A DNA stretch of 64,000 bases from Candidatus Omnitrophota bacterium (GCA_042571725.1 JBHPFN010000005.1:1196-65195), one strand, 5' to 3'; numbered from the stretch's first letter, positions 18,001 to 39,000 are shown. Numbers and translations: made by a program. The notes: generated by a model not told the origin, from the sequence alone.

Positions 18001-21000
18001 GCTTATGGGCATAAATGTAATCGGCGCTGATAAGTTCGAGGCAAGTGTGAGAAAGTGCATCGACGCCGGTATCGGGGATGAGAAAACAGTATTGAGTACA
18101 GAAAAGCCTGGCTGGCAAGATAGAATTCAAGAAGTCTTTGGCGAGGACAAAAAAGCTCAGTTTATACTCGATGCCTGTGGAGCCACAGGGGTAATTAAGG
18201 ATATGGAAGGACTTCTTGAAAATAATGGTTTGTTCCTCTTGTTTGGCTTGATGGATAAAGAGCAGGGAATTCCTGATACTAGTAAGTCACTAGGCGAGTT
18301 TGTCTTGAAGCAACATAAGAAGCTTCGTGCTCGCGTTAAAGGAAGAACTATTGATATCATCGGCCTTTGCGGTAGATCGGATGAATCGTGGCACTGGGTT
18401 GTAGAGGAGCTGAGGAAAACGGATAGTAAGTTTGCAGAACTTTTACTTTCCGGAGTGTATGATTTAGGCTCTATTGAAGGGTTTGTGAGAACGCTCTTTG
18501 CATACAATGATTACAGTAGGGATGCTTTTGAGTCTCTATTTGGAAAAGGCAAGATTACTATGCTTCCATTCTCCGCAGCGTTAGTCGAGGCCTTCCGGAA
18601 TAACGATGCGAATGAGGTTGCTAAAATAGTATTCCCTCAAGAAATTCCTTTCAGTAGAAGATTTGACATTGTGGATGTGCAAGACCAATTCCCTCGAGCC
18701 CCTGTGCTTAGAGTTTTCGCTCCTATAGAAAAAGCCGATAGCAAAATAGGTGTAGCGAGTTCGCTGTTGGGAGCGATATCAACATTTACATCTTTATTCG
18801 GTTTTGGTATGCCGCTGGGTGTAGCAGCAGATGCAGGGGGCAGGAATATCGAAGTATCCGCAGAGCTTGCGATTAGCCGTTATAAAGCACTGCTCGAAGG
18901 TCAGGCTGGAGAGGTTCTTTTAGAAGCAAAGCTCAGATTGTTTTACCAAACGTGGCGCGGTGTTGGCCTTACACCTCCTGCAGGGATACGCTATGTCTTC
19001 TGGGCACTGTTAGGAGATAGAAATCATCCTATGGCAGAGATGGTATTGCGGCATCATCCTCATTTTGATTCGTTGTCAGTAAGAGAAAAATGCGATGCGA
19101 TCGATGCATTAGTAGCCGCAGAACAATTGAACTACGGTTCAATAGAAGAAATTAGACTTCTAAGTTTGGTTATCAGAGGCTTTGCTGCTGATGCGGCCGA
19201 AGGAGAAGTAGCGAACTTTGTTTCAATCGGTTTTGGCAGCATGCTTCCTTTAGGCAAGATTTTTGGATTGATTGCATTCTTGCTTCTTGCACTAACCCCG
19301 ATCGCACAAGCTGATTCCTTGCCGGAAAACAATATCGCCACACAACAAACTAGCACTGATACAAGCGCAACATCTACTCGATCATACACGCGGGTTATCC
19401 ATCCACAGTCAGATCAAGAATATTATTTCTATGAAATACGCAATAAGATAGAACAGAAAGTAGCAGAGGCATACGAGGCGCGTAGGACAAGAGCGTATTG
19501 GGAGAATGTAGAATTAGCAGCTTTGCTTTGGATTGAGCATGTAATCAAGCAGAGAGAATTAGATAATATACTGGTAAGCCTTGTGGATGCGCGTGTACTC
19601 ACCGAAGAATTTTTAGCCTCCCCGGATGCAGAGCGTATTTTGTCTAAACAAGAAGAATTTTTAAGAAGTCGAGAAGCATACGTGGCTATGGAGAGGGCAG
19701 GAGACGTTGACAGCCTCGCACAGAGACGGTTATCCAGAACCGTCCGTCTCAGAGTTCATGATTCTACCGTAGTGAAGCCGCAGGAAATCGATAGCTTAGC
19801 AGCGGTAGCCGATAGTATTCTTGATACGTATCTGGCTGCTACCTGGGTATATCTCGAAGCAGGCGATCCTGAGAAGAAAAAGCAAGAGTTTCTTGCTGAG
19901 CTAATATCCTCAGCGTGTGAATTTTACGGTCGGCCTCTGCCGCCGGCAGATAAAGGATACACACCCGTTGAGCGGATTAAGACTCAAGAAGTAGACGATA
20001 AAAATGATGCTCAACAACCAGAGCCGCAGCCTCGCAACAATCCGCCAATTCCCCCTAAATCCGGCATGGTAGGTTTGTTGTTTGGTAGAATGCTGTCTTC
20101 CTTGCGGCGTAGAAAAAGAGTTTCTAAGCGCGACAGTCAAGTAGCTGAGCCTAAGCAGGTCGCTAAAGGAGCACCACATTTTATTTTAGCCAAAAAGGAA
20201 GCGCTTCCGTCGGGAAGCAGCATTTTTAATCTGAAAGTTGCAATAAGTTTATTGACTTTAGGAATAACAGGACTATTATATAAATTAGGGCTGCTGTGGT
20301 ATGATCTTACGCAGATCATAACTTCGATTACCTCTTCCGTGGCTGGTGGGGTTGAAGTTATTATGACCACAGCAGCCCTATTTGTTTTGCCTATCGCATC
20401 TGAGGTTTCTGACCTCTTCCGTGCCTGCCTGCCGGCAGGCAGGGCTGGTGGGGTTAAAATCACTATAGTTGCAGCGGCCCTCTATTCTTTCTTAATACCT
20501 CTAATAGGGACGTTTCTGACTGCAATCGGAAAACTGTCCCTCGCGGGGACACACTTAGCTTTGATGTCAGAAACGTCCCTAAGAGAGGTAGTAACCTTTT
20601 CTTTCCTCACCCCTGGCCTTGTCTTAGGGGTTTCCGCAGGAAACGATATTTCCGCAAACCATTCAATGGTAACAGTCACTTCACTTTCCGAATTAAGGGA
20701 ACTGTTTGTATCAGGCCGCATCGGTAGACCCGAATGGAAAAGGCTGCTTGATCGCAATCCCCACGGCAAGGAAATTGTGGCAGGGATTCTTGTTGAACTC
20801 ACCAGAAGAGTTACCAAAAAAGAAGATGAACCGTTAGAATTCGCTGACTTTATGCAACTGCGTGACCCTCATTTTAGAGATGCATGGGTAGGCGGACACA
20901 ACCTTTCCGGTTTGCGAGGGGTATTCGACAAAAAATCAGCCGGCAGCGGCAAACCATCGATCGTATTCGGGCTTGAATACACCGGTCTTATAGCGGCGCA

Positions 21001-24000
21001 AAAATCCGCAAAAGATATCTCCAGGCTTGATCAGCTGACTGATCTATTAGCCCGCGGTGTCTACAAGCAGGTTCCCTGGCACATATTATTAGAAGAAAAT
21101 CTTCAACATGGCAAGAGTATCACTGTTCAGATTATCCGCCGTATCGCCTTAGAGGATAACTTAAGAGATCTGGTTATGTTAGATGAAAAAACACACCTTA
21201 GAAAAAAACCAAGAGGTTTCTTAAACGGAGAAACCGCAATTGGTCTTCATAGATACTATCGTAGGCACCATCCCAAGAGAAAAGAAAACGCAGGCAAGAA
21301 GGTAACTCTATTTATGTTAGAAGATCTTGAATTGATCCAATGGATGCCGTCTTTGCGGCAGATCACCTGTTTTGATCAATTGAATAAACTCTTAGCCACC
21401 GGCAGGCTCCAGCAGATTAGCTGGGAAGAGTTGCTGGAGCACAATCCTCACGGTAAAAGGATCATCAGCGAGATAATCGGATTAATTCCCGGTGTCACCA
21501 TTACTGAAACCAAAGAAGTAGTAGGATTAAGCCGTCAGGGCGTAAACGAGCATCTAGACCTATTGGGTAATGAAGCAATCGGTGGTCTGTACGAATATTT
21601 CCAGAGAAAATTCGCGGATAGAGACACTTCTTCCAGGACAGAAGCGCTCATCTTGGGTGCTGTGGCATTTATTCCTACCGTAGCACTTTTGGAAGAAAAT
21701 GCCTGGGATGTTTCAAAGACTGCTCAAGGTTTAGGTATGGATAGAAAGACATTGCGCAATAGGCTTGCACGCTTCGGTTTTGATTCCAAAGAAGAAAGAA
21801 GAAGATTCAGGCAGCAGGTATTAGAACAGGAAAGACCTAGATTGCTAGAAGCGCTTGAGATGGCTGGTTGGAACGCAAGGGCTGCAGCTGAAAGTTTAAG
21901 TATCACCAGAGATGATCTGCGGGAAAAACTGAGGAAGTTAGGTATCGATACAACCCAAGGAAGAGAGGAATATAAAAAGCGTGAGTTGATCAGAAGAAAG
22001 CCGGAGATACTTGCGGTTGTTACAGCCTATCGTTGGAAAATAAGGCCCAGCGCAGGAGCATTGCGAATGGGACGCGTGCGGCTAAGAGAGATCCTCACTG
22101 AGGTCTACGGTTATGACATTGAGGCAGAAAAGGCAAAGATACAAACAGCCTTTACACAGATTAGAAAGGTTATTGCCCGTCTGTATCGAAGCGATTACCG
22201 AAACGGAGCAGTGCTTGATCTGCGCGGTGTATCTGCTGAGACAGAGATTATTTTAGTCGGTGATTTGCACACCCAGCTACACAACCTCGAGGCGATTTTA
22301 GCACATAGAAAGGTACGTACTGTCGGCGGCGTTGAAGAGCTCGATGTTGAGAATATCGAAAAGATACGCGCTAAGAAGGCGGCCCTGGTCATCTTAGGTG
22401 ATGCCGTCAACGCTGATCCTGCAGGCTGTGAGATCGCGAATAATGATGAATCAGAATTTCTTGAGCTTGCCAAAGAAACAGAGCCTTCAGTCAAGATGAT
22501 GCACTTCATCTTTGATTTAATCATTGAGAATCCGGATAATGTTTTCTATGTATTAGGAAACCATGATTATCTGACATATACTCATTACCGTTCAACGCAC
22601 CACAGACAAAGGATATTCCAGGGTATTGCATATCGAGAAAAGCTTACGGAGTTATTCGGAGAAGAGTATGTCATGCTCTATGAGAGGTTTATCAGCGTAA
22701 GTCCTATACTTTTGGTGGCTGATGGATTAGTTGCAACACACGGCGGACCTGTGGTTTCTGCCCGTTCATTAAAAGCGATTGAGCACGTGCCTACAGATGA
22801 TGAAACTCATTCTTTCGTTGCTGAGGCCATATGGGGACGCTATGATACGCAAGGAATAATGTCGCATGGATACAGAGGACCTCAGGTAGTAGAATTCTTA
22901 AGCAACGTTATCGGCCAACCTGATGCGCTGTTTGTGGTAGCGCACTCGCCTCGTCTGATATATCCGGGAGAATTCTGGGCACAGCTTTTCTCCTGCCACT
23001 ATGTGATCTTTGCAGGCAGAAAGCAGAGCGGCTATGCATCATTTGCAAACAATGAGATTGAATTTGTCCCGGTTACCGCACCTGATAGAAGTGGTAGCGT
23101 TACTCCGAGCGCTTCGATGTTCACCGCATTCGATATAGGGATTGCAGCGCTACTCTTTGGCATTGCCTCGGGGGCTGCGAGCGTTATTAAATATCTTTCC
23201 CAAAGAAAACTCCGCGCATACATCAAGAAAAGACTTTCCTTATTAGAAGATTATCCCGCGCCTTTATCCGAACAAGGAAAAGCTGCGGTCGCAAGAATCA
23301 CACGCGATATACAGCTCGGACGCATCTGGTTTATTTCCAAGCGTCAATTAGCCAGACATCAGCTCGTGCTTAGCGATCCTCCCTTTAGCTGGTTCGAGAA
23401 ATATTTCACAGATTTTGATGCAATCGAAGCAATGCGAGTAGCACACCGCAGGGCAGAGTTGGTAAAAGTAGCGGTGACAGAAGGATGTTCTGTGCAATGC
23501 GATTATTGCTCAGCTGATCCTGGGCCGCCTGATTCTATGCCAGATCCGTGGGTAGCTGAAATAATGGATGCATTGGCAGAATATAAAGCGGAGCTTGAGA
23601 ATAGTGTGCGGGAGAGAATGAGGCGAGCAGACTTTTCCGTTGAGCAAAACTATTTTGCCTTTATCTTCGGCTGGCACGACAATAATCCTGTGGTAGATCG
23701 CCACGATCCCCTTTACGATACGGATTACGCTGATATATGTGAGCGTCTCATAGAAACACTGGGTCAAGAGGTGTTTAATCTATCAACCTCAGGCTGGGAG
23801 ATGGGTTCTATCGGCGAGAAGGTAATACGGAAGTTAGGAAAACTAAGCAAGAAATACGGGATTAGAGTTTCTATGCTTTTTCATATTAATACCGAAAGCG
23901 GCTTATTTAATCGGCTTGGCCCTGAAGAATATACTCGTCAGATGACCGCTGCGTTTAATCTGGCAGCTGAGATGTTTGGGGTATCCAAGATTTCCTTTGC

Positions 24001-27000
24001 CTACGGTTCTTCAACCAATGCACACAATACACACTTGATAGAAGCGATTACGAATGGCCAGTTCATGCATGAGACTGAGCCGGGGTCTAATACTCTCTAC
24101 GTGGAAACACGAGGAGAGCGCATTCCTTGTCATTTCTTTGAGCCATGGCGCGCAGAGGGAAGGGCTGCCGATCTTCCTAAGCCATTCGGGTTTGATTCTT
24201 CTGAGGATAGACCTGCTGCACAACGTATTCAGTTCACCATAGATAGAAAGTTAGTCTTAGTGAAGGAATTCAGCCGGCAAGGGACATACACAATAAAACG
24301 AGAGGTGCTGTTGCCAAAGCCGTCTGCAGAGGCTTCGATGTTTAGTGCAGCGGGGATTGGAATGGTGCCTCCTGAAAAACTTATGCGAGACATAACCACC
24401 TTCCTTGATTCTAAAAAAGCACTGCTCCATAGCCTGTTAGGAAAGTCTTTTCCTGGAGTCCTCGGCCCTTGCAAGATATCTTCGGTAGCACTTATCAAGA
24501 TTCTCTCGAAGAAATTTAATCTCCCGGTTGCCGGCGACAGCCCTCTTAGATTAGAAGCAGTAACTGGCATATTCATCGACAAGACACACTTACAAGAGAA
24601 AGAAGGTATCTGGTGGCATGTATGGGTAACGCTTATTGTGGATAATAAAGAAGTATTGTTTATTGATGGTGCCAGTCTTCAAAAGAGAGATGCTATTATT
24701 GTGATGCCCTATGATGAAGCATTACGTAGGTTTTCCTTATCAGAAGTAGATGATGCTCTTATTGAACAATTAATTGGCATGACCGCTTCTCGGCATCATG
24801 ATCTGCTTGGCCGTATCTTTAGAGGTGAATCGATAAGCGATCGAGAAAGACCTCAGCTTAACACAGTTCCTTATGATAGCTTGAAAGAGTTAATGATATT
24901 ACGAGATAGAAATAGAAGAGTTCGCGCAGGAGAATTATATTTTGAAGGGACGCAGGCCGGAGAAAAGATTGTCCGTTTAGTTGAAGCGGTATTGAAGGAT
25001 TCCTTTGAAGAAGAGAGCGTTGGATCCCAAAACTCCGCTCGTGTTGCGGCAGATGCAGGAACTCCTGATGCGGATACAAGTCAGGCAGATGCAGCGATGT
25101 TTACCGCTGGTGGGTTTGGGATGGAGACAGTCCTTTCATCGCTTCAATCGTTGCTGTCAGGGGCATTGAATATGTTTGTGCTTGGCATCTCGACTTCTGA
25201 GAGTAGGGAGCAAGGAGATGGCGACGGGATTGCCATGAGCAAGATAAGTGCATCTGAAGTTGCTGTTTACAGCGAGTTATTAAAACGCTTAATATATCAA
25301 TATCTGGTTGAAAGTCCAGCCTCAAATTTTGCTACTCTTCCAGAAGCGCAGCGCACTCCAATAATAAAGGCTACTCTTTTGAGTATACAGTCTACACTCG
25401 CAGACGGAAGGGGCGAACTAATATTATGTCGATCTCTTCGTAATCCATTCCAGGGAGGGATGATTTACTACTACTGGAGAGAGAGCGACGCGATGATGGT
25501 AGTTCAAATATTTGTCGTAAACGATAGGTTCAAAAGCTTTGGTTTAAGGCCGATACTTTTAGGATCAGCAATAGCGCAAGCACGCAGCAGACAACTTAAT
25601 CTTTTTATGGTTATCGATGAAAGCGATACGTCTTTGAGGACGATTGTTGAAGAAGCCGAGTTCGTGCAAGATAATAGTTATGAGGGAGTCGGGCTCCTAC
25701 ATAGAAGAGGTGAGCAAAATATTTATGTCTTAAGGGCGGCTCATGGCGCTGAAGCAACACGCCCAGCAGCCCAGCCGCAAGCAGAATTACCAGAAGCAGA
25801 AGGTTCTGAAGGCAGGATAGTATCTTTTGCAGGCAAGGCATTTGCTGACTATGTGCTTGGATCCGACCAAGCGCAGAGTAGACAACAACTTATGGAGTTG
25901 ATGCGCCACTGGCTGATTGAGACCGGACAGGTTGCGCCTGATCAGCCCGAGGTTTTAACACAAGAGGCCAACGGACAGCTGATAAAAATGTTAAGTACGG
26001 TCAGCGGACTTAGGGCTGGATGGGTAATGCTTTACTTTGATTCCAATCAGCAGGTTTGCGGCCTGGCGTATTATCGCCTGTACGATATCGAAGATCCGGA
26101 GATGTCAATTAAGGTTGAAGTAGTAGTTGCGCTTCCGGGAAGTGAGGATCAAGTTATACGAAGACGTCTTTTAGTGCAGATTGTTCAAGAGACGCGAAGA
26201 CATACTCTGGATGTGTTTATGCTGGTTGAGCCCGGCCACAATCAATTAGCGCAAGATTTAAGGGAAGCCGGATTCGAACATAATGATGCCCTTGTAAGAG
26301 TTGACCCTGATGAGCGCGGGCTAAGCGATGTGTATGTATTGGAAAAAACCCAGGCTGCTACAGCTCAGAGCCTAGCCGTAGCACCGACCCCTGAAAGCGA
26401 GAGAGTGTCGCACCAACCTTCCCAGGATGCCGGTAGGGCAGGGATACATATATTCTCAGCAGCTGATTTACAGCCTACAACGGCTGGAGGCGTACGACAA
26501 CTTTCATTATTAAAACAATTGATACGCGAATATTTCATTGATACCCCTCGTGTGCCATACTCGGCCGATTCACCTCAGCTTAATGAATCTTGTGCTTATC
26601 GACTGACAAAGATGCGAGACGAACTAGGGGATGGGACCGGTGTGGTTATACTCTATCGTGATCCCCGCCAGCATAATCTCGCAGGGTATGTCTTCTACTC
26701 CTTTAGGCCCTCTACTACTCCCGGAGAAAGCGCGGTCACTATCGATTTATGGGTCAACAAAGAGATGGACGAAGATTCAAGAAGGCGCATCATCAAGACC
26801 CTTCTTACCGTAGCTATGGAGACCGCAGGAAATATGAGTGGGAAATACTTTATAATAAGTATTTCTCCTGATGATGCAGCTCAACAGCAAATCGTAGTAG
26901 GTTTGGGGTTTGCGCCAGTTGAGAGAATTTATATAGAGGGGAATATTCTGGATTCAATTATGTACGAGAAAGAAATTGACCCGTCATCCGCAGCACCGAC

Positions 27001-30000
27001 CTTTGGAAACGAGGCCCTAAAGGGTTGCTCACCGCAAACAGTGCAGCACTCACCATCTGACACGATGAGTGCAGCGAGTGCTGCGGCTCCCGCATCTGAA
27101 CCAGCAGGATCTCTCGGCAATGTTCAAGAAGGCATGCATGAATTGTCGGCTGCTGACTTTGAACCTTCAACGGATCAGCAGCATGAACGTTCTGAATTTT
27201 TAAAGCAATTAATGCATAATTATGCCACTCATTACCCGCTTGTCACGCAGGAAGTTGATTCGCCGGAATTTAATGAATTTCTTACTGAGCGGCGCGCAAC
27301 GATGCAGCAAGGAATTAGAGACGGCTCGGGAGCGGTCATGCTGTATCGTCATCCAGGTGAATCTACCCTTGGAGGATTTATCTTCTTTGTCCATGATTCA
27401 GTACAGGAAGGGTTAGAGGTAGTGGTAGATTTATGGGTCAGTACAGAGATAGAGCAAGAAGAAAGAAACTTAATCATCGCGGCTCTTTTAACAAAGGCTA
27501 TGGAAACTGCACGTGTTCAGGGTCAAAGATATTTTGAAATATATGTTCTGCCTGACGATACGCAGCTGCAGCAGGTAGCTGGTCGCTTTGGGTTTGGGCA
27601 GGGAAGAAGCTACCTTGATCAGTCTGGAAATTTATTTTTGATTGCATATCGTAAAGCAATTAGTTCTCCGTTAACCGAAGAGCGCGCAGCCGATAGGACT
27701 CAAGAAGCTCAGGAGCCGCCTGAGCTTAATCGCTTAGGTTCTATTATTACGGTGCTTGATCCCTCAATTCCTGCGGTAGTGGTACCCGCGCGGTTGGCGA
27801 GTACGCTGGAGGCTGTATTTGGAAATCCACAGGTGGCAATGACCGCAGAGGAGTTCTGGGACTTTATGCAGCATTTACGCACAACCGGCGCATTGCCAGA
27901 ACTCTATAGTATCATATCCGAGGGTCATCAAGCTGCGCAAGAGGTCAGAGAAGAGCTGGCGCGTTGCGAAGGATTAGACGCGATAGAGCAAGAGGACCTG
28001 CTAGGTTCTGCGTATGGAGTTTTTGTCTGGCTTGCCGAGGTAGCCTGGAAGCATACGCTTAATCAGAGACCAGATCTGCGCAGACGCTTATCCGGATCGG
28101 CTACTGACTTTATTGCTCATCTCCCGGAGCATAATCACGTGACAGCGAGGCTGCTAGAAAGAGCGGGGATTTCTCCTCTTTTCTCAGTGGACGAGGCTCA
28201 CTTCTTTTTTCTCCCGTATGTGTTTCCTTTTATGATTGAGGATAATGAAACTTTCAGCGTACGCACTATGTTCTTCAGAAGCACTGAGGAGTCTGTACGC
28301 ACAGGAATGAATTTATTATTTGAGGCTGACGGTGCTTCGCAAAGACCTATTGCAGCCGAGATGTTCGAGACATTCCGTACGCTGCAGCGTGCCGTCTTAT
28401 CCCGTTTTCAGGGAAGCTATAGCGCTGAGTATCGGGAAGAAATGGATGCGTTGCTGCGCAAAATGGCGAAGAATATTGCACTGTTGCGCAACAGGGGAAA
28501 TCAGCCACCTGATGAGCCGCATACTCCAGATTCGCCACGTGGCGGGCCACAGGCTAATTCTCCGGTCTGGATAACCATCTTAGCTGTATTAGTTGGGCTA
28601 GCGATGTATTATCTTGCGGGCGGATCTTCAACTGAAGAGGCGCCACAGGTTTTGATGGGCTTGTCACTTTTCGGTGTAGGCTTAACTCACGGCGACCTTC
28701 CACCATGGCTGGTGAGACTTTTAAAGAAACTTAAGGTAACCGATGATTTGAATGGCACAAAGATATTCCGCGGGGAAATTTCTGCATGGGCAAAGGCCCA
28801 CGGTTTATTCTTAGACCAACCGTGGTATCGCGATGTGCGAGAACATGGCTTATATCTGAGAACGCGGGAAGATGCTTTGCGGCTCTGGACGCTAAGGAGA
28901 ATTGAAACCTATATTCTTGATTACGCTAGAGAAATCGATCGGGAAGCAACAACAAAAAGATGGATGGAGAGTTTAAAGGCAGCGGCACTCAGAGACAGCG
29001 CGCAGATACGCCAGAGGCTGCGAAGAGAACAATTATCTCTCACAGAAGAAAGGCGTGTAAAACGAGCATATCATAACATTCAGAAGAAATATCTTTGCGG
29101 CTTACGGGGCCCGCATCATGGAAGAGAAGCTACTGACGCGCCGTTTATCTGGGCGTTAAAGGGAAGAGTATTTAAGCAGGTACAGCAGAAAAGGGCCGGT
29201 AAGCTTTTTGGCGAAATAGATATAACCGATATGACATTAGCTGATCTTCCTATCTGGCCGGTAGAAGGAGGTAGGATTAGAGAAGATTTGATTGAGTGGA
29301 TGGCAGAGAGAGAAGGTGCGCCTCCTGCGCAATATTATGCAGCGCGCAAACTCTCCATTAATCAAATCCTACAAGAAGAACCCCCGGCCGGCCAACTCGA
29401 ATTACCTTTCGGCAAAACAATCATTCCTTTCATAGTTACAGTACTTTCCGGCGGCATAAGTATGCCGCTTGGGGCAGCGGTAGAGGGTGGAGAATCTGAT
29501 GTCCGTCCATCTTTGTCTCCTATCGAGGATACAGTTACTAGAGACCTTAATAAAGATAATGTAGTGTTAGTCGGATTAGCAGACGAAAGGCTTGCTTTTG
29601 CCGGTGAGACAGCCGGAATCAATGCAATAGCCGGTTATCTAAACCGTGATTGCAAAGATGCAGAGGTTACAATTTTAGACATGCAGCTGGATTCTTTGGA
29701 AGATGTTATAGAGACAATAAGAACAAAGAAACCCGCCATATTGGGTATCGCCGCCAGGATTAATACATTTAACCAATTGCTACAGTTGACTCAGGCAATA
29801 GCAAAGGAGATTCCTCAGGAAGAACAGCCACTTATCGTGCTCGGAAACGCCTTGCCTACTTACATAGGCGATGTGATTCTACAGCGATTCTTGCCTTTTG
29901 CTGTGCTTGGTCTAGGAGAAGGCGAATTGGTAGTAGCTGATCTCTATCGGTATGTGAATGGGCAGATTGAACTATCCGAGGTACGAAATATTGCCTATCA

Positions 30001-33000
30001 ACAGGATGGTGCAATGGTTCGCAATCCAAGAGTCCTGATGCCTGTTGAGGAACATGCACTGCCCGATAGGTCAAGAACAAGAGAGTTTTATGAAAGAGGA
30101 GGCTTGGCGTATTTTGAACAATCACGAGGCTGTCCACGAGCAGCATGCACATTCTGTGCAAGTAAGGAGATTCTTGGGTCGAGAATAGCAGGAAGAGGCT
30201 GGCGACCGCTCCCCTTAGATACCGTCATAGAAGATTTAAATATCTTAGAGCGCATGGGTGTTCAACAGGTACGCGCAGCTGATGAAGAATTTTTACCTAT
30301 CGATCCAAAAAGAATGAAAATAGCCAGAGAATTTGCAGAAAGAAAGATTGCAGTGGGTAATGCAGTTAGATTCGACATCATCACAAGAGTAGATTCAATC
30401 TACAATGAAAATGATACAGAAGAAGAAGGACGGGAAAGGGTAGAAACACTGCATCTTTTAAAGCGCGCCGGGCTTGTGAAGATATCATTAGGCGTAGAGT
30501 CGTTTTCTGAGGGTCAGCTGAAGAGATATAACAAGGGCATCAGCACAAAAGAGATTGAAGAGGCAATAAGAATAGTAAAAGAGTTGGGTGTTGACCTCGA
30601 GATAGGTTTTATTCCTCTCGATCCTTTGGCGAGCTTCGCAGAAGTCAAGGAGACCCTCGCCGGACTCGAGAGGACGGAAACAACATTAGAGGCCTCTACT
30701 GCCTTTAAGGAATTAAGAATTCAGCACGGGGCCACGTATGTTGGGCTTGTACGCAGAGAAGAGCAAAGAAGCGGTATCGCAATTCTTGGCCGTCTCGATC
30801 TTAATTCGTTAAATTATCCCGTGGTTCGTTACGCAGACGAGAGAGTTAATATCATTGCACGTAATATGAGAAGCTGGAACGAAAAAGTGTATCAACTCTT
30901 TTATTTGCTGAGAATATACACACAATACTCTTCGTATGAACAAGGTCAAATAGCTGCATTTAGATATTTTGATGCCGCGTTATTCTTTGATCTCATCAAT
31001 GACCTGCGTTATTTAGAACTTGAATTATTTAAGGCGATTATCGCAGAACTTGAAAGAGACGACGATGTACACACCGCAGATATTCGCATACGAACTATCA
31101 TTGGACAGCATGAAGAAAGAAGATCGGAAAAAATCAGGATGTTTTCGTCTGATCTTGATGCAGCTAGACTGACAAGCGCCACAGGAAAAGAAGGTCTAGG
31201 CGCTGATTTGAGACATGCGATTGCCAATTACTTTAGTTATTTGACTCCCTGGTACCGGCTGGCACAGCGATTCACTGACCAGGCATTAGTACACACCTCA
31301 ACACTAGCAGACTACCAAGAGGCGGTAGATGGGGTGATGAGTAGCTTGCAAACAGCTACCGCAGAGCAACGAACGCGGTTCATCGAGGATCTTTGGCGCA
31401 TGGTATCGACATATGCTATTGAGGTTTTCCCACCAGTTTCTGCTGATGGTTCCCGCGTACTCTTCTACGATTATAATCAGGCGAGCGTATTAGATATGCG
31501 TGTACCTAATCAAGGAGGTCCGATTGGGATACGTAGGATATTGTCCGGTAAGCCCACCACCGCCTTCAGTGCACTACGTTTTTTGGGAGTTCAAGCTCAG
31601 CGCAGCGGTTATCCCCATGAAGAGGCACGAGCTCGATCGGTCATCCACCTAGATCCACGTCGAAGGATTGCGCTCATTGCTCCCTCTAGAGTGACACCTG
31701 AAGACATCGAACAAAGTTTACAGGAGGTATCCGAGACTTTAGAGAATATGCAGCCGGGTAGCATATTTGTATTTGGTGGTTCTATACCGGAGAACTTACC
31801 GCCAGAAAGAATCAGCGATCTCGTTAAGCAAGCAAAGAGAAACAAAATATTTGTTGTTGTTGACTTTAGTTCGAAGTTAACTAAACAGCAAGCATTGGCA
31901 GTTCTTACCGCCACCCCGGATGTGATCAAGCCTAATCTATACGAGTTTGAGATGGTATGTCGCTCTGTTGGTTTGATTGAAGAGGATGCGAGCCTACGTG
32001 CTGATAACGATAGAGGGCGCGCAGAAATACTGCGCTATGCCAGAATTATTGTTGAGCGATTTAGTCTTTCTGCAGCGATCGTTACGTTAGGAAGTTACGG
32101 TGCTCTTGTTTATGCCCGTGACGAGTCATATTATGGAAGTTCTTTAGTTTCTACAGAGGAAATCAGGGGATTAATCGGTGCGGGAGATGCATTTTGCGCG
32201 GGGATAGTGTACGAACTTTTGAGGCAAGGCGTCATGCATACCGAAGAGATCGATTGGAAAGCGGTGCTTTCTATGGGATTAAGAGTCGCCTCAGCTAAAG
32301 TAACGCTACCGGGATTAACCATGCCTTCGATGGATTTAGTGGAAAGGCAAGAGATAAGTGAATTGAGACCCATCTCAACTACTACAGCTTCCGGCGAGAC
32401 TAGTAGTTTTACCTCGGTTGGCATAGGACTTTTTGAAATCGTAGAAATTGTTGTTCGTTGGCTGAGTTCCGGCGGCATAAGTATGCCGCTTGGGGTGGCG
32501 CACGGCAGCTCCGGAAATAAAAAGAAGGGTTCTAAGAGCCCAGAAGCAGAATTGGCACAGTGGCAACGTCAGTATGATGATTTAGAACGCGAGATTGCTG
32601 TTCGATTCCCAACGAACGTTCCAAAGGGTATCTCTGGAAGGATGGAAGAAGCGCAGACAGCCATCGCTTCTGCCGAGAGTGTTATCTTATTTCCCGAGCA
32701 GCTTCGGAAAGGAAGGGGCGGAAAAGTAAAACGCCGACAATTTCGCGCCGCAGGACGACAAGAAGTTTCGGTTACAAGAGAATTCCATGAAAGGTTAGGC
32801 GTAGTCAAGCAGAGGGTCAAGGCGCTTAGAGCTGCGTTGGCCGAATATGACCAAGGACAAAATCCGGAAAGAAAGCGCATTGAAGACAGCACTCAAGAGG
32901 TGCTTACTGAGATCTGGGATCAGGTTGACCGGGCGAAAAGCGAGACCAAGTTTTCTTTCTTGGAAAACTTACGCTTGAAGATTATCCAGTTTACCGCCAG

Positions 33001-36000
33001 AAGGGTAGCATTAAGAAAGAAAGCGATTTGGGTACTTAGAAAAACCAGCGATAGCCAATTGTGGAGAGTAATCTTTGCGCCGTTACTTCCGCTACTTGTT
33101 TGGATGGAGAAAGGCTTTATCGTTACCTCAACCGATGCAAGGAAGGTCGGTAGGGCAATCTTTGATTTACGTGGCCGTCAGATCGGGGTAACGCTTGATA
33201 TCGTAGGAGACGCGGCAGCATCCACACAAGAGGCTGAGGAAAGAGTTCGATTCTATCTTACCATGATGGAATATTGGTCGAACAGTGCGCACGAATGGGA
33301 TGCGGTTGAGCAGCTGGATACATTCCCTCATGTGTTCTGTTCAACAAAGATAAGCGCAATTCACTACGATGCATGGGAGCAGGATGGCGAAGGCGCATTC
33401 ATTCATAAGGAAGCGATAAAGGATACGTTTAAAACGTTGGTACGTAAGGCCGCTGAGGTTGATGCCTTTATCCGGATTGACTTAGAGGAGTACGGCTTCC
33501 GCGATGTGACTATGGAGATTTTCCAAGAGGTCGTGGAGGAACTTATTCAGGAGAATCCACGGTTGGTGATTGATGAGGAGCGTAACGTCTTACGTATCGG
33601 AGTAGTGGTGCAGTTGTATCTTAAGGATTCAGGAAAGACCCTGTTCGACTTACGGAAATGGAAAGCTGAAAAAGAACTCCCCCGCATTCCCGTGCGGCCG
33701 GTAAAGGGTGCATATGAAAAGCCGGAGAAGCGCTGGGCAAAAGGTGAGTATGGAGAGACGGATGAATACCGATTCAACGGAGGTAAACCATATCCCGCTC
33801 CGGTATTTGGTAACAAGGAATCAACCGATGCACACTACGAGCTTATGTTAGAGTATCTTATTATGCATCACGATGATTTTCAAACAGCGGTTGCTTCGCA
33901 GAATCCACGTTCTGTTGCGCGCTCAATCGCCTTAGCTAAACACTACGGTTTAAAGCTTGAAGATATGCTGATTCAGATGCTTTTAGGTATGTTTGACTTC
34001 CTTAAGTATGCGCTGGTGAAAATGGGGCTTGCCGTTATGGCCTATCTGCCTGCAGGAAAAGCAATGCGGGCAAATAAATATGTTGGCCGCCGCTTAGAAG
34101 AGCTCGGTAATGAGAAAGAAAGTGCAGTTGTAATGATGATTCTTGGGGACGAGGAGGGCTTGAGAAAACTGCGCAAGCCTCCGAAGTTCCAGCTTAATGA
34201 TTATCCTACCTTTGTTTCCAATGACGTAAGAGAGATTTTCGAGGACATGAAGGCTGATGGAGAAATCCCAAAGGCTGTTGTTCCGGAGCTTGAAACCGCA
34301 GCAGTAAGCATGTTTGTAAGCGGATTCGGTTTTCCGTTTATGACGTTGGGAGTAACTATAGATGCCGGAGATGATACGCCGGAAGCACCTAAGATGCTTG
34401 TCTTACCGGGTGAATTACGGGTTGAAGGATGGGGTGTACACATAGGCGGCATATCGAATCAGAGCATTACCGTGGCGATTGAGCGTACAGAAACGGGTAA
34501 TTACTTTTTCCGCGTTACCGAAGGCCATGTTACTTCTGATGTGGCGTCATTGCCGTTTATTCTATCGTATGCGCTTACCTGTCAGATCATTGAAGATAAA
34601 AATACGTTGGAACAATGGCTCGGCGAAGAAAATCGGCGGGAGATTGAGATAGCGGTACATGTGAATAGTGATAATGCCTTGGAAGTGGAAGTTGAGCCTG
34701 CAAGGATATCGCTGCATATTGGTCTGTTTTTAATTGATGACCGTGCACACACGCATCATTATGGGCCGGCTGCCAGAAGGCGCAAGAGAAACAGGCGAAA
34801 CTTACGATCCTTCCGCGAATCAGCCGTTGCGATAGCATTAGATATGTTAATTCATCCCCAAGATGAAAACGGCATTAGGCAGAGATTAGCTCAACGTTTC
34901 GCAGCAGATCCCTTGCGGCAAGAAGCCTATGAGATTGTTTTGGATAATACGCCGGTATTTAAGATTGTTAAAGCAAATGATGAACCTTCTGCAGAAATGA
35001 GCATGTTTGTAAGCTTAGGTTTAGGTGAAATTGCTTTGATTATTGCAGGTGGAGCGTTTCTCATCTCATTTTTTGCCGGGATAGGCCCGGTCACATTAGA
35101 AAAAACACGCAGGGCAGCGAGACTTGCCGTCTATCACCGTGCACCGAGGTTACTTTTCTGGAGAGCGGTATTTGCAATGACCCGTGGAATTATTGCTATC
35201 TTCAGTCGGTTCTTTAGCAAAGATAGCTGGTTCCCGCCCGAAAACCACATTACATTTTTTGATCTTATGGAAAGGCCTGATTACCAGCACAAGACTGAAC
35301 CGGAGAGAAGGGATCTAGAAAAAGCATTAGGGTTAATGCGGATTATTCCGATAGCCCGAGAGGACCTTTTGGGTATCGCTAAACCGGAGGTTAAGATGTT
35401 TAGGCCGGGTTCCTTTGAAGAGGTCGCGCAGGAAATTCACACTCCCCGGCTGCTTGAATTCGAATTCATGCGGCATGTCTTCAGAAAAAGAGGCAGGGAT
35501 TCACTGAAAAACATAGAAGGGGGTAAACGCATTATTTGTAATTTTGATACCACCCTTGAGATTGAATACCGAGGTAGAAAGACACGTGTTAATTCCCATA
35601 AAGCATGGGCGGTGTGGTTTAAGATTTTGAATATTATCGGCGGAATGGAAGACGAAGACATAGCGAAATTAACCTTTGTGGCTGCCTCGCGGGGAGTATT
35701 GGCTGAAGCAATCATTACCTTGGCACACTTAGTAGGTGCACGCGCAAGGATTTATATGCCATTTGATAAACTTTCTCGCAAGAGGGCTGGCAGGCTTATA
35801 AAGAAGCTGAGCAGGGAAGGCATTCAATATGCTTTACACTACGACTTTATGTTTGTGGGTGAAGACTACGAGCGACATGCGTATCCTGCTGCAGCCCAAT
35901 ACGCACAAGAGTATGCGCCCCGCACCAGATTTATCTCTGCGGTAAACGACAGGACGATGGTAGAAGGCTATGCGCTTATGGTGGTAAAACTCATTGAGCA

Positions 36001-39000
36001 AATGAGAGCTAAGAGATTGCCCGATCCTTCCATGATTATTACTACCTGTGACGTAGGTGCGTATATTCAGGGATTGATTTTAGGGCTGCATGCATTAGGT
36101 TTGAAGAACACTAAGGTTGTAGGGGTGTTATGCGAGGAAGAACATTCAAAGTTGGTTAATGTGCTGCGCGCCCGGGAACAAGGAATAGATTTACAGGGTG
36201 TCTTGGGTGAGCAGTTCTTTGTGGCCGGTCAAGAGAACATCGATATGTTCATGCAATTGGGGGGTGCTGCGGTAACGGTGGGCAGACGCTCTAATCATGT
36301 TGCGGCAGAACTCTTACGTTTTGCAACAGGAGCAGAAGAAATTAGGGATGCACGTGCTTTGGCAGCTCTGTTTGAAGCAGGACCTACGCTTTTAGAAAAA
36401 TCAGGAAATGGGCCGATTGTATTGGATATCAGCAATGCCGAAGACGATAGCGTCTTGACCGCCGATGCCTTTATGCGCAGATCGTACCTTGCGCTTGTTG
36501 TGAGATTCCTGCTTTACACTTTCACAGTATTATTTAGAAGAGGAAACAATCAGGGTCCGGTTAGCTTTGATGAGTTTATCGAACACCACAGGCCAGAGCC
36601 AAAGAGAAGGATGAATATCTTAGTTGTTGAAGACGATAAGAAAGCCCGTGAATATCTACGTGCTACTCTAAGCGCTGCGGGTCATAACGTTACTTTGCTT
36701 GATCCGATGAAGGGGGATATTGTTGCGAGAGTGCTCTCGACAATAGATAAAAATGGGATTGATGCGATTGTCTCTGATTATGAGTATCCTGACGGTAAAG
36801 GAGGAACAATCGGGGCCGAGGAGGTCATTCGACGCTTGCAGCATGAACAAGGTTTTCCGAGGGAGCGGATTATTCTCTGGTCTTCGGTACGCCAGATCCT
36901 TTCTATCAAAACAGGGCTTGATCGTCCAACCGGGGCTGCTGGTAAGGCACAGGATGATTTTCATGCCCAGCCAACCGGAGTCGTGAAACAAATAGAAGAT
37001 TTAGTCGGATTTATGACTTCTAATAGAGAAGAGCTATTGAAATTCATCAATGCGATTATGGAAGATATTATTGCAGAGGAAGCTGCGGCTGAAGAAGCGG
37101 ACAGTGAGTCGGAGATAGGTTGTTTTACCTCAGGTGCAGGAGTTGCGTTGACGAGCATGCTCAGCAGAGAAAAAAGACATGAAATCTGCGTTGTCTGCAA
37201 CAGCAACATCTTCCGCAGCAGGTTATTGCAGCTCTATCTTCAGACGCAGCTTTCGAGACAAGGCATAAAAATATCTTCAGGCGGCCGCTATGAGACCTCG
37301 TTTGAGTATGTTGGCATGTGCTTTAAGGAGATCATCCAATCGTTACGGTTAGTTATTTCGCCGCTTGCGAGATATTTTGCAGTGAATTTGCATACCGGAC
37401 TCGCCAGAGATTATCATCCGAAGATGATGACTCAAGAGAAAGTAGACGCAGCAGATAGCATGCTGGTTGCAACGCATTCTCTTGTTACATGGCTTAAGGA
37501 AGAATTTAGCAATGTTTCAAAGAAGTTATATCTTATAACTGAATTCCTCGATCCTTTGGATCCAGTTTACGGAAATCTACACGGAAACGATCTGCCTGAT
37601 TTAGGCGAAACGTTTAAAACCGCATATGGAGGGCGCGTTTCGATGGATGCGCGCACCCTGTTAGCGATATACGAGCAGTTAAACATAGAACGCATCTTAT
37701 CCAAATCGCCGTATAGAAAAGACCCCATGTATTATATCCGGATAGCCCTCAGGAGCTTAGCCTCTGGAGTCACAAGTCTATTGAGTGGATTCGGCATGGT
37801 GTTAGGTGTATCCATTGCAGCCCAAGAGGAGCCGCTTCTGTTATCGCCGCGGCGCATCGGAAGCAGGATGCTTACCTCAGCCCACGATTCTGATATGCCA
37901 CCGTACCGCCGGCTAGACAAGGCCTCTGTAATTCAGATTATCGCAGATATGCTGTATGTTGCTGGTCTTGGAAGCTTGCCACTGCGCTTTGCGCAACGCC
38001 ACTACAGCATAGCCCTTTATGAGTTTGAGTCACGAGAAATCGTACTGTTAGAGCCCGCATTTAACCTTATCGGCGCTGGACAGTTTGGTTTATTTGCCAG
38101 TCATGAAATAGGTCATTTAGCATTCTTTAGTGGCTTGACCTGGAGGGATGATGATATTGTAACCCATCTTTATCGATACTTCATGAAGTATGGTGACGCA
38201 GAGATATTTGAGCTTCTAAAAACTGAGCTTGGTGTCTCAGATGAAAGAGCAGTGGAAATGATAGTCTTCTTAAAAACGATGCTCTTATGGGGTATGGAGT
38301 TTAATGCAGATGAAGCTGGATTACGGATCATGCAAGCACTGCGATTCCACGAAGATAGTGCGATTTCTTTGTTTGAACAGTCACCCTCGATTCATCAGAG
38401 ATTGTTTGATCAAGGCTATCTTTTGTCTCAGGCTGAAGATAAATGGGGTGATAGGTTTTTCGGAGTAAGCCTCCATCCACCGGTTGAAGATCGCATTGCA
38501 AGAATGCTACGCTTGGCAGCTGAAGCCGAGGAAGAACGAACCAGCGGCGGCATTATACTTCCTGGCTCACCTGATTTTAGGATCGATAGTTCGGATGCAA
38601 GCTTCTTTACTTCGTTTGGTGGGTTTGATCTGATAGGGAATATCGCGACTATGTTCAGCGGATTTGTCTTAGGCGTGGCTGAGGCAGCAGAAGGAAACAG
38701 TTGTAAAATTCGTACTGTCTGTCGTCAGGGCCTTTTCCGCAGTAGGGTTTTAGCGTCTCACTTACAAGAACAACTTGCTGATACAGATTTAGAAATAATC
38801 TCACTCGCCTGGCCGGGAGACGCCTCGATGGCAGAGGGCTACAGATTATTAAGAAGATTGAAAAAATCAGAGGATCCTCGCCTGCCGCCAGGTTCTGATT
38901 CAGAAGTAATCCCACGCATCGCAACAGCGCAGGATATGCACGAGGCAGATATTATCTTAGTGGCAACACAAAATATTTTGGATGAACTAAGAGCAGAATT

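What the first reader, a model, noticed from the sequence alone, without database searches (positions are those of the whole stretch)
29446..32495. An identical 29-nt direct repeat brackets the B12-radical-SAM plus PfkB kinase pair
TTCCGGCGGCATAAGTATGCCGCTTGGGG occurs at 29446-29474 and at 32467-32495. The copies are 3,021 nt (exactly 1,007 codons) apart and in the same phase. Both encode the SGGISMPLG end of a junction cassette (J15 and J16). Perfect nucleotide identity in otherwise diverged cassettes suggests recent duplication or gene conversion. It marks the two-enzyme block between them as a cassette-bounded unit that could be gained, lost or shuffled by homologous recombination without breaking the frame. 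That would be a plausible growth mechanism for the giant gene.
Basis: seen in the sequence. Interest (0 to 1): 0.55.

Follow-up and report, generated by a model that had tools for sequence, protein, structure and literature searches.

The report
Hairpin-forming 29-nt repeat flanking enzyme module
Two identical 29-base stretches really do flank a two-enzyme segment inside a giant bacterial gene; they look like a recently copied, hairpin-forming end of a linker motif, a modest clue to how such genes are remodelled and not evidence of a mobile unit.

Summary
TTCCGGCGGCATAAGTATGCCGCTTGGGG occurs exactly twice, at 29446-29474 and 32467-32495, with none expected by chance. It is the longest exact direct repeat in a window that is one uninterrupted reading frame of at least 21,333 codons. 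That frame strings enzyme domains together through a recurrent ~50-residue junction cassette.

All nine shared codons are identical (P about 1e-5 given the peptide). Other shared peptides in the gene differ at 3-6 synonymous sites. The flanks show no homology at DNA or protein level, so the patch is a sharply bounded island of identity.

- The 29-mer folds almost end to end into a hairpin (-15.4 kcal/mol).
- J16 is a full cassette, but J15 is cassette-like only through the patch.
- The "same phase, 1,007 codons" spacing follows automatically from one ORF encoding the same peptide twice.

Best reading: a recent short-patch copy (gene conversion or template switch) of the cassette's C-terminal end, probably J16 to J15. 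It leaves a direct repeat that could mediate in-frame loss of the radical-SAM/PfkB block. No other cassette pair shares 18 nt or more, and no relatives were found in any collection. Mobility and "growth mechanism" therefore remain untested.

The parts
29446..29474 (+). Copy 1 of the exact 29-nt repeat. It encodes (L)SGGISMPLG(A) and supplies the only cassette-like part of J15.
32467..32495 (+). Copy 2 of the exact 29-nt repeat. It encodes (S)SGGISMPLG(V), the C-terminal end of the full cassette J16.
29451..29468 (+). Perfect palindrome GCGGCATA-AG-TATGCCGC inside copy 1. With G.U and G-C pairs the hairpin extends over positions 2-28 of the 29-mer (-15.4 kcal/mol).
32472..32489 (+). The same perfect palindrome and hairpin core inside copy 2.
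29420..29494 (+). J15, a partial junction cassette (aa 9807-9831, IIPFIVTVLSGGISMPLGAAVEGGE). It matches only the C-terminal half of the cassette profile and lacks the N-terminal (A/S)xFTxxG motif.
   Evidence: 10.0 bits over HMM positions 29-51; -2.1 bits without the patch
32351..32503 (+). J16, a full junction cassette (aa 10784-10834, ...GETSSFTSVGIGLFEIVEIVVRWLSSGGISMPLGVAH). AlphaFold gives a low-confidence helix followed by coil over the patch peptide.
29399..31315 (+). B12-binding radical SAM enzyme module (aa 9800-10438). It is 39% identical over about 640 aa to a free-standing 656-aa Aminicenantes radical SAM protein (P0001). Pfam places B12-binding at nt 29597-29941 and Radical_SAM at nt 30122-30652.
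31712..32323 (+). PfkB-family carbohydrate kinase domain. It is fused to the radical SAM module by a short linker with no cassette in between.
2..64000 (+). The single uninterrupted reading frame (at least 21,333 codons, open at both ends) that contains everything above. It is a chain of enzyme, regulator, membrane and transporter modules separated by junction cassettes.

Best explanation
The 29-mer is the C-terminal end of the gene's own junction-cassette motif (...SGG-IS-MPLG-VA). It was copied recently, at the nucleotide level, from one cassette to a second site 3 kb away. The likely direction is from the complete cassette J16 to the leader of the radical SAM module, which created the partial cassette J15. 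The likely mechanism is a short-patch, non-reciprocal event: ectopic gene conversion or replication template switching. The patch's self-complementarity may have favoured this, because it is a near-perfect hairpin. The product is a 29-nt direct repeat that flanks the radical-SAM/PfkB module in frame. A repeat of this length sits at about the lower limit for homologous or RecA-independent recombination, so it could occasionally delete, or via a circular intermediate move, the 3,021-nt block without breaking the ORF.

Shown: the identity island, its sharp edges, its hairpin, its cassette homology, and the asymmetry between J15 and J16.
Inferred: the copying mechanism, its direction, and any recombination activity.
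For: - The repeat is exact and far beyond chance, and it is the longest exact direct repeat in 64 kb.
- All 9 codons are identical, with P = 1.1e-5 given the shared peptide and this gene's codon usage.
- Other peptides of 7-9 aa shared within the ORF differ at 3-6 synonymous sites.
- In-register flanks are 23-33% identical, which is random level. Gapped local alignment of 150-nt or 60-aa flanks is no better than shuffles.
- The right half of the patch (ATG CCG CTT GGG GTG GCG, MPLGVA) matches the cassette at nt 18809 (ATG CCG CTG GGT GTA GCA) at every non-synonymous position and differs only at third positions. The patch is therefore cassette-derived and not foreign.
- The leave-two-out cassette HMM shows J16 is full-length, while J15 is cassette-like only through the patch.
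- The 29-mer folds over positions 2-28 at -15.4 kcal/mol. It ranks among the ~10 most stable of 64,000 29-nt windows (window mean -3.2, sd 2.5).
- Nucleotide-level copying irrespective of frame demonstrably occurs elsewhere in this ORF: exact 19-24-nt repeats sit in different reading phases, and one element is present in both orientations.
- Short perfect direct repeats are known to mediate RecA-independent deletion of the intervening DNA (PMC5426353). Template switching between repeats is documented (PMC7145654).
Against: - There is no flanking homology that could initiate a classical RecA-mediated conversion.
- With only two copies and no related genomes, recency cannot be separated from strong nucleotide-level selection.
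- The direction J16 to J15 rests only on cassette completeness.
- No other cassette pair shows a comparable patch, so this is a single event and not a demonstrated process.
- No deletion or circle alleles could be looked for, because neither reads nor related strains were available.
Confidence: 0.5

Rival explanations
1. Functional nucleotide-level element. Both copies are old and are held identical by selection on the hairpin itself. The hairpin could act as an RNA structure (translation or transcription pause, or an mRNA processing site) or as a palindromic protein-binding site, bracketing the radical-SAM/PfkB module.
For: - The edges of the identity coincide within 1 nt with the edges of a stable hairpin.
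- It is among the strongest local structures in the window.
- Identity includes synonymous sites, and the flanks have diverged to random level.
Against: - None of the other 10 cassettes has a comparable hairpin at the equivalent position; their values lie within the random distribution. It is therefore not a general feature of junctions.
- Loop and unpaired synonymous positions (1, 13, 16 of the 29-mer) are also identical, which stem selection does not explain.
- No Rfam family matches.
- There is no T-tract, so it is not an intrinsic terminator.
- In 69-109-nt context the fold is not significantly better than shuffles, with z from -0.2 to -1.4.
- The hypothetical uninterrupted coding of SGG-MPL (GCGGCA|TGCCGC) is already palindromic, so part of the symmetry may be a by-product of codon choice.
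Confidence: 0.17
2. Integration footprint. The 3,021-nt block entered by site-specific or Campbell-type recombination, and the two 29-mers are the duplicated core (attL/attR-like).
For: - Sharply bounded direct repeats with unrelated outer and inner flanks are what att cores look like.
- The 29-mer has inverted arms around a short centre, readable as 8-2-8 or as an imperfect 11-6-12.
- The hypothetical circle junction (J16 left plus J15 right) scores as the best cassette at 21.8 bits, against 7.6 bits for the deletion product.
Against: - Pfam scans of the whole window found no recombinase or integrase domain.
- The block's codon usage and GC are typical of the gene (Jensen-Shannon divergence (JS) 0.0119, about the 64th percentile; GC 0.452).
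- The repeat encodes the gene's own cassette consensus at the homologous position.
- The 29-mer is absent from viral contigs, and its 19-nt core gives only 6 hits in metagenome contigs; the four hits inspected sit in unrelated contexts.
- By my own comparison it does not resemble dif.
Confidence: 0.1
3. Two independent insertions of a very small mobile palindromic repeat (REP-, SDR- or RPE-like) that happens to be translated in frame. This is the behaviour of the other palindromic repeats in this ORF.
For: - Two other hairpin-forming nucleotide repeat families sit inside this ORF with sharp edges, in different phases or orientations.
- One of them, CCTGCCTGCCGGCAGGCAGG, is dispersed in 35 unrelated viral-contig loci.
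- Palindromic elements inserted in frame in genes are known, for example Rickettsia palindromic elements (PMC10969869).
Against: - There are only two copies. Both are in the same phase and at the homologous position of the cassette motif.
- Removing the patch would delete the invariant LG of the cassette from J16.
- Its right half is homologous to another cassette, with differences only at synonymous sites.
- 29 nt is not a multiple of 3.
- It was not found elsewhere.
Confidence: 0.08
4. Chance or assembly artefact.
For: Coverage and read-level data could not be examined.
Against: - The chance expectation is about 7e-9 pairs analytically, and 0 in 100 shuffles.
- A 29-nt repeat is shorter than the k-mers or reads that resolve assemblies.
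- The ORF and the enzyme homologies run continuously across both junctions: radical SAM homology starts right after J15, and PfkB ends right before J16.
Confidence: 0.03

Closest known systems
Short-tract ectopic (non-allelic) gene conversion or template switching between dispersed paralogous repeats, and deletion between short direct repeats (e.g. PMC5426353, PMC7145654)
   Same: It is an island of perfect nucleotide identity at homologous positions of two paralogous units, exceeding the background divergence. The result is a short direct repeat that is a known substrate for deletion of the intervening DNA.
   Different: No flanking homology is detectable. The tract is only 29 nt and coincides with a hairpin. 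The recipient (J15) lacks the rest of the cassette. No population or phylogenetic evidence for the event is available.
Omnitrophota giant multi-enzyme genes (Archaeovorin-type giant proteins, bioRxiv 10.1101/2023.11.21.568195; 'multi-enzyme metabolic cluster' class, bioRxiv 10.64898/2026.06.07.730766)
   Same: The ORF exceeds 20,000 codons. Many unrelated Pfam enzyme families tile one polypeptide, including Radical_SAM and HD, and there are numerous hydrophobic helices.
   Different: Taxonomy could not be established, and no relatives of this gene were found in any collection. The recurrent junction cassette and the exact repeat are not mentioned in the parts of those two texts I searched. The 2026 preprint reports that nucleotide repeats have mostly dissolved, so this exact repeat is an exception.
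Palindromic mini-elements translated inside genes (Rickettsia palindromic elements; REP/MITE-like repeats; PMC10969869)
   Same: It is a hairpin-forming repeated nucleotide sequence lying in frame inside a coding sequence. Comparable elements, families F2 and F3, do occur in this ORF.
   Different: The 29-mer has only two copies. Both are in the same phase and at a homologous motif position, and they encode the host motif's consensus. It is much shorter than RPEs (~150 bp).
att/dif/lox-type recombination cores flanking integrated modules
   Same: These are sharply bounded direct repeats of about 28-30 nt with internal dyad symmetry, flanking a discrete 3-kb segment.
   Different: There is no recombinase in the window. 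The insert is compositionally native. The repeat is coding and motif-derived. No empty site is known.

Membership tests
Ectopic gene-conversion / template-switch patch between paralogous cassettes | Island of nucleotide identity far above background divergence, including synonymous sites | tested here: met
   29/29 nt are identical. P = 1.1e-5 for 9 identical codons given the peptide. Other shared peptides differ at 3-6 synonymous sites.
Ectopic gene-conversion / template-switch patch between paralogous cassettes | Both copies at homologous positions of paralogous units | tested here: inconclusive
   Both copies supply the ...G-x-[MFLIV]-[PV]-LG-[VA]-A end of the cassette. J16 is a full cassette, but J15 has no cassette signal outside the patch.
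Ectopic gene-conversion / template-switch patch between paralogous cassettes | Flanking homology able to initiate homologous recombination | tested here: not met
   Flanks are 23-33% identical in register. Local alignments are no better than shuffles at nt and aa level. This favours template switching or illegitimate patch copying over classical RecA-mediated conversion.
Ectopic gene-conversion / template-switch patch between paralogous cassettes | Phylogenetic or population evidence that one copy was overwritten | not testable with these tools
   No relatives were found in genome contigs, metagenome contigs, viral contigs or the protein collections.
Site-specific integration core (att/dif-like) duplication | Recombinase encoded in or next to the element | tested here: not met
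   Pfam tiling of all 21,333 aa found no integrase, resolvase or transposase family. The genome outside the window was not available.
Site-specific integration core (att/dif-like) duplication | Insert compositionally distinct or of foreign origin | tested here: not met
   Codon-usage JS divergence is 0.0119 (about the 64th percentile of equal-sized windows). GC is 0.452 and GC3 is 0.391, both within the gene's range.
Site-specific integration core (att/dif-like) duplication | Empty target site in related genomes | not testable with these tools
   No related sequences were retrieved.
Dispersed palindromic mini-repeat (REP/SDR/RPE-like) | Forms a stable hairpin | tested here: met
   -15.4 kcal/mol with 11 pairs over positions 2-28; z = -3.2 against shuffles of the 29-mer. 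It ranks in the top ~10 of 64,000 windows.
Dispersed palindromic mini-repeat (REP/SDR/RPE-like) | Many copies in unrelated contexts, in any phase or orientation | tested here: not met
   There are two copies only (up to 3 mismatches allowed), in the same phase, on the same strand and at the same motif position. There are 0 copies in viral contigs and only 6 core matches in metagenomes, with unrelated context in the four inspected. The rest of the source genome was not available.
Dispersed palindromic mini-repeat (REP/SDR/RPE-like) | An insertion relative to uninterrupted paralogues | tested here: not met
   The patch encodes the cassette's own conserved end. J16 without it loses the invariant LG and drops from 19.4 to 9.3 bits.
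Known structured RNA / intrinsic terminator | Match to a curated RNA family, or a hairpin followed by a T-run | tested here: not met
   There are no Rfam matches at gathering threshold in the window. Neither copy was called terminator-like, and the hairpin is followed by GGGG/CAGCG.
Omnitrophota giant multi-enzyme gene | Single ORF of more than 10,000 codons tiled by many distinct enzyme families with hydrophobic helices | tested here: met
   The ORF has at least 21,333 codons without a stop. About 15 Pfam families are present. There are 78 hydrophobic 19-aa segments.
Omnitrophota giant multi-enzyme gene | Taxonomic placement in Omnitrophota | not testable with these tools
   The window holds no marker genes and no close relatives were retrieved. 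The assignment is by analogy to the literature only.

The most novel reading that the evidence does not exclude
The two identical hairpin sites are functional boundary signals, not a passive scar. They could be recombination sites or RNA-level take-off and landing or processing sites. They would let the cell excise, skip or re-insert the radical-SAM/PfkB module in frame, making the junction cassettes a built-in system for module-level variation of a giant gene.
Probability: 0.06. Interest if true: 0.8.

Novelty: new member of a known kind. Interest (0 to 1): 0.33.

Why it matters
Giant multi-enzyme genes of over 20,000 codons have only recently been described, and how they are assembled and remodelled is unknown. 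A sharply bounded, recently copied piece of a linker cassette that now flanks a whole enzyme module is direct evidence of two things. First, nucleotide-level copy-and-paste operates on the linkers of such a gene. Second, it creates substrates for in-frame module loss. If population data showed alleles with and without the block, cassette-mediated modular evolution would become testable. As it stands this is one event in one gene. It is a useful lead but not a demonstrated mechanism.

Tried and rejected
- **Relatives of the block.** The block plus flanks (1,150 aa) was scanned against genome contigs, which gave only a spurious 40-aa Brachyspira hit. The metagenome-contig scan gave nothing. The 5.8-billion-protein index returned only free-standing radical SAM proteins at 38-39% identity.
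- **Relatives that might lack the block.** The upstream 1,412-aa module gave no hits at all.
- **The repeat itself.** The 29-mer is absent from viral contigs. Its 19-nt core gave 6 hits in metagenome contigs; the four inspected sit in unrelated contexts, one being a terminator hairpin, and all six are consistent with chance.
- **Cassette profile.** It gave no hits in the word-indexed search. In the 1.84-billion-representative HMMER search it gave only three spurious repeat proteins, for example NHL-type repeats with ...PLGVAVDGSGN....
- **Hairpin as a general junction signal.** Rejected, because the other cassettes have no such structure.
- **General enrichment of perfect hairpins.** 17 were observed against 8.7 +/- 3.0 in synonymous shuffles. 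The excess is due to the two repeat families, not a pervasive property.
- **Known RNA, tRNA or terminator.** None found.
- **Foreign origin of the block.** Rejected on codon usage and GC.
- **Extended homology of the flanks.** Rejected.
- **J15's hydrophobic stretch as the native N-terminus of the radical SAM family.** The alignment FGKTIIPF against FARTVPFF in P0001 is too weak to rely on.
- **AlphaFold model of the J16 cassette.** Low confidence (pLDDT 62), showing only one helix followed by coil, so it was not used for function.


Full report
**Observation.** The 29-mer TTCCGGCGGCATAAGTATGCCGCTTGGGG occurs exactly twice in the window, at 29446-29474 and 32467-32495 on the + strand. No further copies appear with up to three mismatches, and none occurred in 100 dinucleotide shuffles (sequence read). 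It is the longest exact direct repeat in the window. It is one of only six direct self-BLASTN hits.

**Context.**
- The entire 64-kb window is one open reading frame. The frame starting at nt 2 has 21,333 codons and no stop, while the other five frames have 658-1,656 stops.
- Pfam tiling finds a chain of unrelated modules: GHMP kinase, PYC_OADA, alpha-amylase, HD, zinc ADH, HTH_8, metallophosphoesterase, B12-binding plus Radical_SAM, PfkB, proline dehydrogenase, PALP and, at the end, an AcrB-type transporter.
- There are 78 hydrophobic segments.
- This matches the giant multi-enzyme genes described for Omnitrophota (bioRxiv 10.1101/2023.11.21.568195 and 10.64898/2026.06.07.730766). Taxonomy could not be tested here.
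- The modules are separated by a recurrent ~50-residue junction cassette. It has a small or acidic run, then (A/S)xFTxxG, a hydrophobic helix...G-x-[MFLIV]-[PV]-LG-[VA]-[AS], and then a Gly/Ser/acidic linker.
J15 and J16 are consecutive, with the B12-radical SAM and PfkB domains between them.

**Is the identity more than protein conservation?** Yes.
- SGGISMPLG is one of the two longest peptides shared anywhere in the ORF.
- Given that peptide and this gene's codon usage, the chance that all nine codons agree is 1.1e-5.
- Other shared peptides of 7-9 residues differ at 3-6 synonymous positions.
- The identity is an island. In register, the 30-nt bins on either side are 23-33% identical.
- Gapped local alignments of 150-nt or 60-aa flanks do no better than shuffles.
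- This is not a decayed duplication. It is a sharply bounded patch.
- The "3,021 nt = 1,007 codons, same phase" point adds nothing. Two stretches encoding the same peptide within one ORF must be a multiple of three apart.

**What the patch is.**
- Its right half (ATG CCG CTT GGG GTG GCG, MPLGVA) is the conserved cassette end. The cassette at nt 18809 reads ATG CCG CTG GGT GTA GCA, identical at all non-synonymous positions and different only at third positions. The patch is therefore native cassette sequence and not a foreign insert.
- A cassette HMM built without J15 and J16 aligns J16 over its full length (19.4 bits; 9.3 without the patch). It aligns J15 only over the C-terminal half (10.0 bits; -2.1 without the patch).
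- J15 is cassette-like only because of the patch. This suggests the copy went from J16 into the leader of the radical SAM module.
- Homology to a free-standing radical SAM enzyme (P0001, 39% over ~640 aa) starts right at J15. PfkB ends just before J16.

- The 29-mer contains the perfect palindrome GCGGCATA-AG-TATGCCGC. It folds over positions 2-28 into a hairpin of -15.4 kcal/mol.
- It is among the ten or so most stable of all 64,000 29-nt windows, whose mean is -3.2 and sd 2.5.
- The edges of the identity therefore coincide with the edges of a hairpin.
- The other ten cassettes have no comparable structure at the equivalent place.
- The loop and unpaired synonymous positions are also identical.
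- In longer context the fold is not significantly better than shuffles.
- No Rfam family, tRNA or terminator-like tail is present.
- I therefore treat the hairpin as a property that may have promoted copying, since quasi-palindromes and repeats are template-switch substrates (general knowledge; PMC7145654). I do not treat it as a demonstrated signal.

**Support from elsewhere in the gene.** Nucleotide-level copying independent of frame clearly occurs in this ORF.
- Exact 19-24-nt repeats around 8.4, 12.7 and 20.4 kb lie in different reading phases.
- The perfect 20-nt palindrome CCTGCCTGCCGGCAGGCAGG occurs three times in unrelated contexts and two phases. At 20412 it looks like a 20-nt insertion relative to the unit at 20328.
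- A ~70-100-nt compound-hairpin element occurs at 8560-8630 and 26988-27085 and, in reverse orientation, at 47345-47430.
- The excess of perfect hairpins over synonymous-codon shuffles (17 against 8.7 +/- 3.0) is due to these repeat families.

**Mechanism and consequences.**
- My best explanation (confidence ~0.5) is a recent short-patch, non-reciprocal copy of the cassette end, by ectopic conversion or template switching, probably from J16 to J15.
- Its by-product is a 29-nt direct repeat around a 3,021-nt, two-enzyme block.
- Repeats of this length can mediate RecA-independent deletion (PMC5426353). By general knowledge they are near the minimal length for RecA-dependent exchange.
- In-frame loss of the block is therefore mechanistically possible.

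**What is not supported.** No evidence shows that the block is or was mobile, or that this is how the gene grew.
- No other cassette pair shares 18 or more exact nt.
- The block's codon usage and GC are typical of the gene.
- No recombinase domain is present in the window.
- No related gene, allele or even cassette-bearing protein was found in any collection.

**Rivals.**
- A functional hairpin element under nucleotide-level selection (~0.17).
- An att-like integration footprint (~0.10).
- Two insertions of a mobile palindromic mini-repeat (~0.08).
- Artefact or chance (~0.03).

The decisive tests are read-level junction and coverage analysis in the source sample, and comparison with orthologous giant genes.

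**Verdict.** It is a new instance of a known kind of event, short-patch copying that creates a direct repeat, in an unusual host gene. Interest is moderate to low (0.33). The dispersed 20-nt palindrome noticed in passing may deserve its own follow-up.

Noticed in passing
window 8393-8412, 20424-20443, 46563-46582 (expanded variant 12725-12765); loci L008-L042: The perfect 20-nt palindrome CCTGCCTGCCGGCAGGCAGG occurs three times inside the giant ORF, in two reading phases and with unrelated flanks. The same exact 20-mer has 42 copies at 35 loci in viral contigs of GC 0.38-0.68, always with sharp edges. In L032 it forms the long variable arm of a tRNA-Met. In L039 it sits in a tRNA-like D-loop. 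Some copies are flanked by short direct repeats. It was not found in the paper library. It appears to be a widely dispersed discrete palindromic mini-element of unknown nature.
   Followed up: partly
window 8560-8630, 26988-27085 (+), 47345-47430 (reverse orientation): A ~70-100-nt compound-hairpin nucleotide repeat lies inside the ORF. It is 82% identical over 60 nt between 26991-27049 and the reverse complement of 47362-47420. The 8560-8660 copy folds with z = -4.7. The same DNA element is therefore translated in both orientations without interrupting the frame. This resembles Rickettsia palindromic elements or MITE-like repeats.
   Followed up: partly
window 12652-12774 vs 20328-20452 vs 8523-8549: Exact 19-24-nt repeats (TTACCTCTTCCGTGGCTGGTGGGG and others) are shared between hydrophobic segments but read in different phases (LPLPWLVG against ITSSVAGG). 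This implies nucleotide-level duplication with frame compensation, and strong selection to keep the giant ORF open.
   Followed up: partly
window 2-64000: The whole window is one stop-free frame of 21,333 codons, open at both ends. It concatenates ordinary cytoplasmic enzymes, a Fis-type HTH regulator, multi-pass membrane modules and an AcrB-like transporter.
   Followed up: yes
cassettes at nt 1097-1246, 4442-4597, 10772-10930, 18689-18841, 25049-25210, 32351-32503, 37676-37831, 38537-38698, 40436-40609, 56891-37; N-motif-only copies at 7433, 8273, 23108, 34967, 52955, 54362, 55106, 58550, 61049: The recurrent ~50-aa junction cassette ((A/S)xFTxxG, helix, xLGVA, Gly/Ser/acidic linker) separates the modules. 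Several copies have only the N-terminal motif followed by transmembrane-like helices. The last full cassette in the list ends at nt 57037. No homologous motif-bearing proteins were found among 1.84 billion representatives. Its function (anchor, linker or processing site) is unknown.
   Followed up: partly
window 25208-29443 (aa 8403-9814) and aa ~12600-20600: Long stretches of the ORF have no Pfam match. The 1,412-aa module upstream of J15 has no detectable homologue in the 5.8-billion-protein index.
   Followed up: partly
window 42168-42424 vs 42468-42719; 43331-43390 vs 45317-45376: Diverged in-frame internal repeats (73% over 261 nt; 82% over 60 nt) lie in the domain-less part of the ORF. 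They are evidence of older internal duplications.
   Followed up: no
P0005 (943 aa): The C-terminal half of the cassette plus its linker (xPLGVAxDGSG) resembles the start of NHL-type repeats (GGGFSxPLGVAVDGSGNVYVAD). The similarity is probably coincidental, but it is the only outside similarity the cassette profile produced.
   Followed up: no
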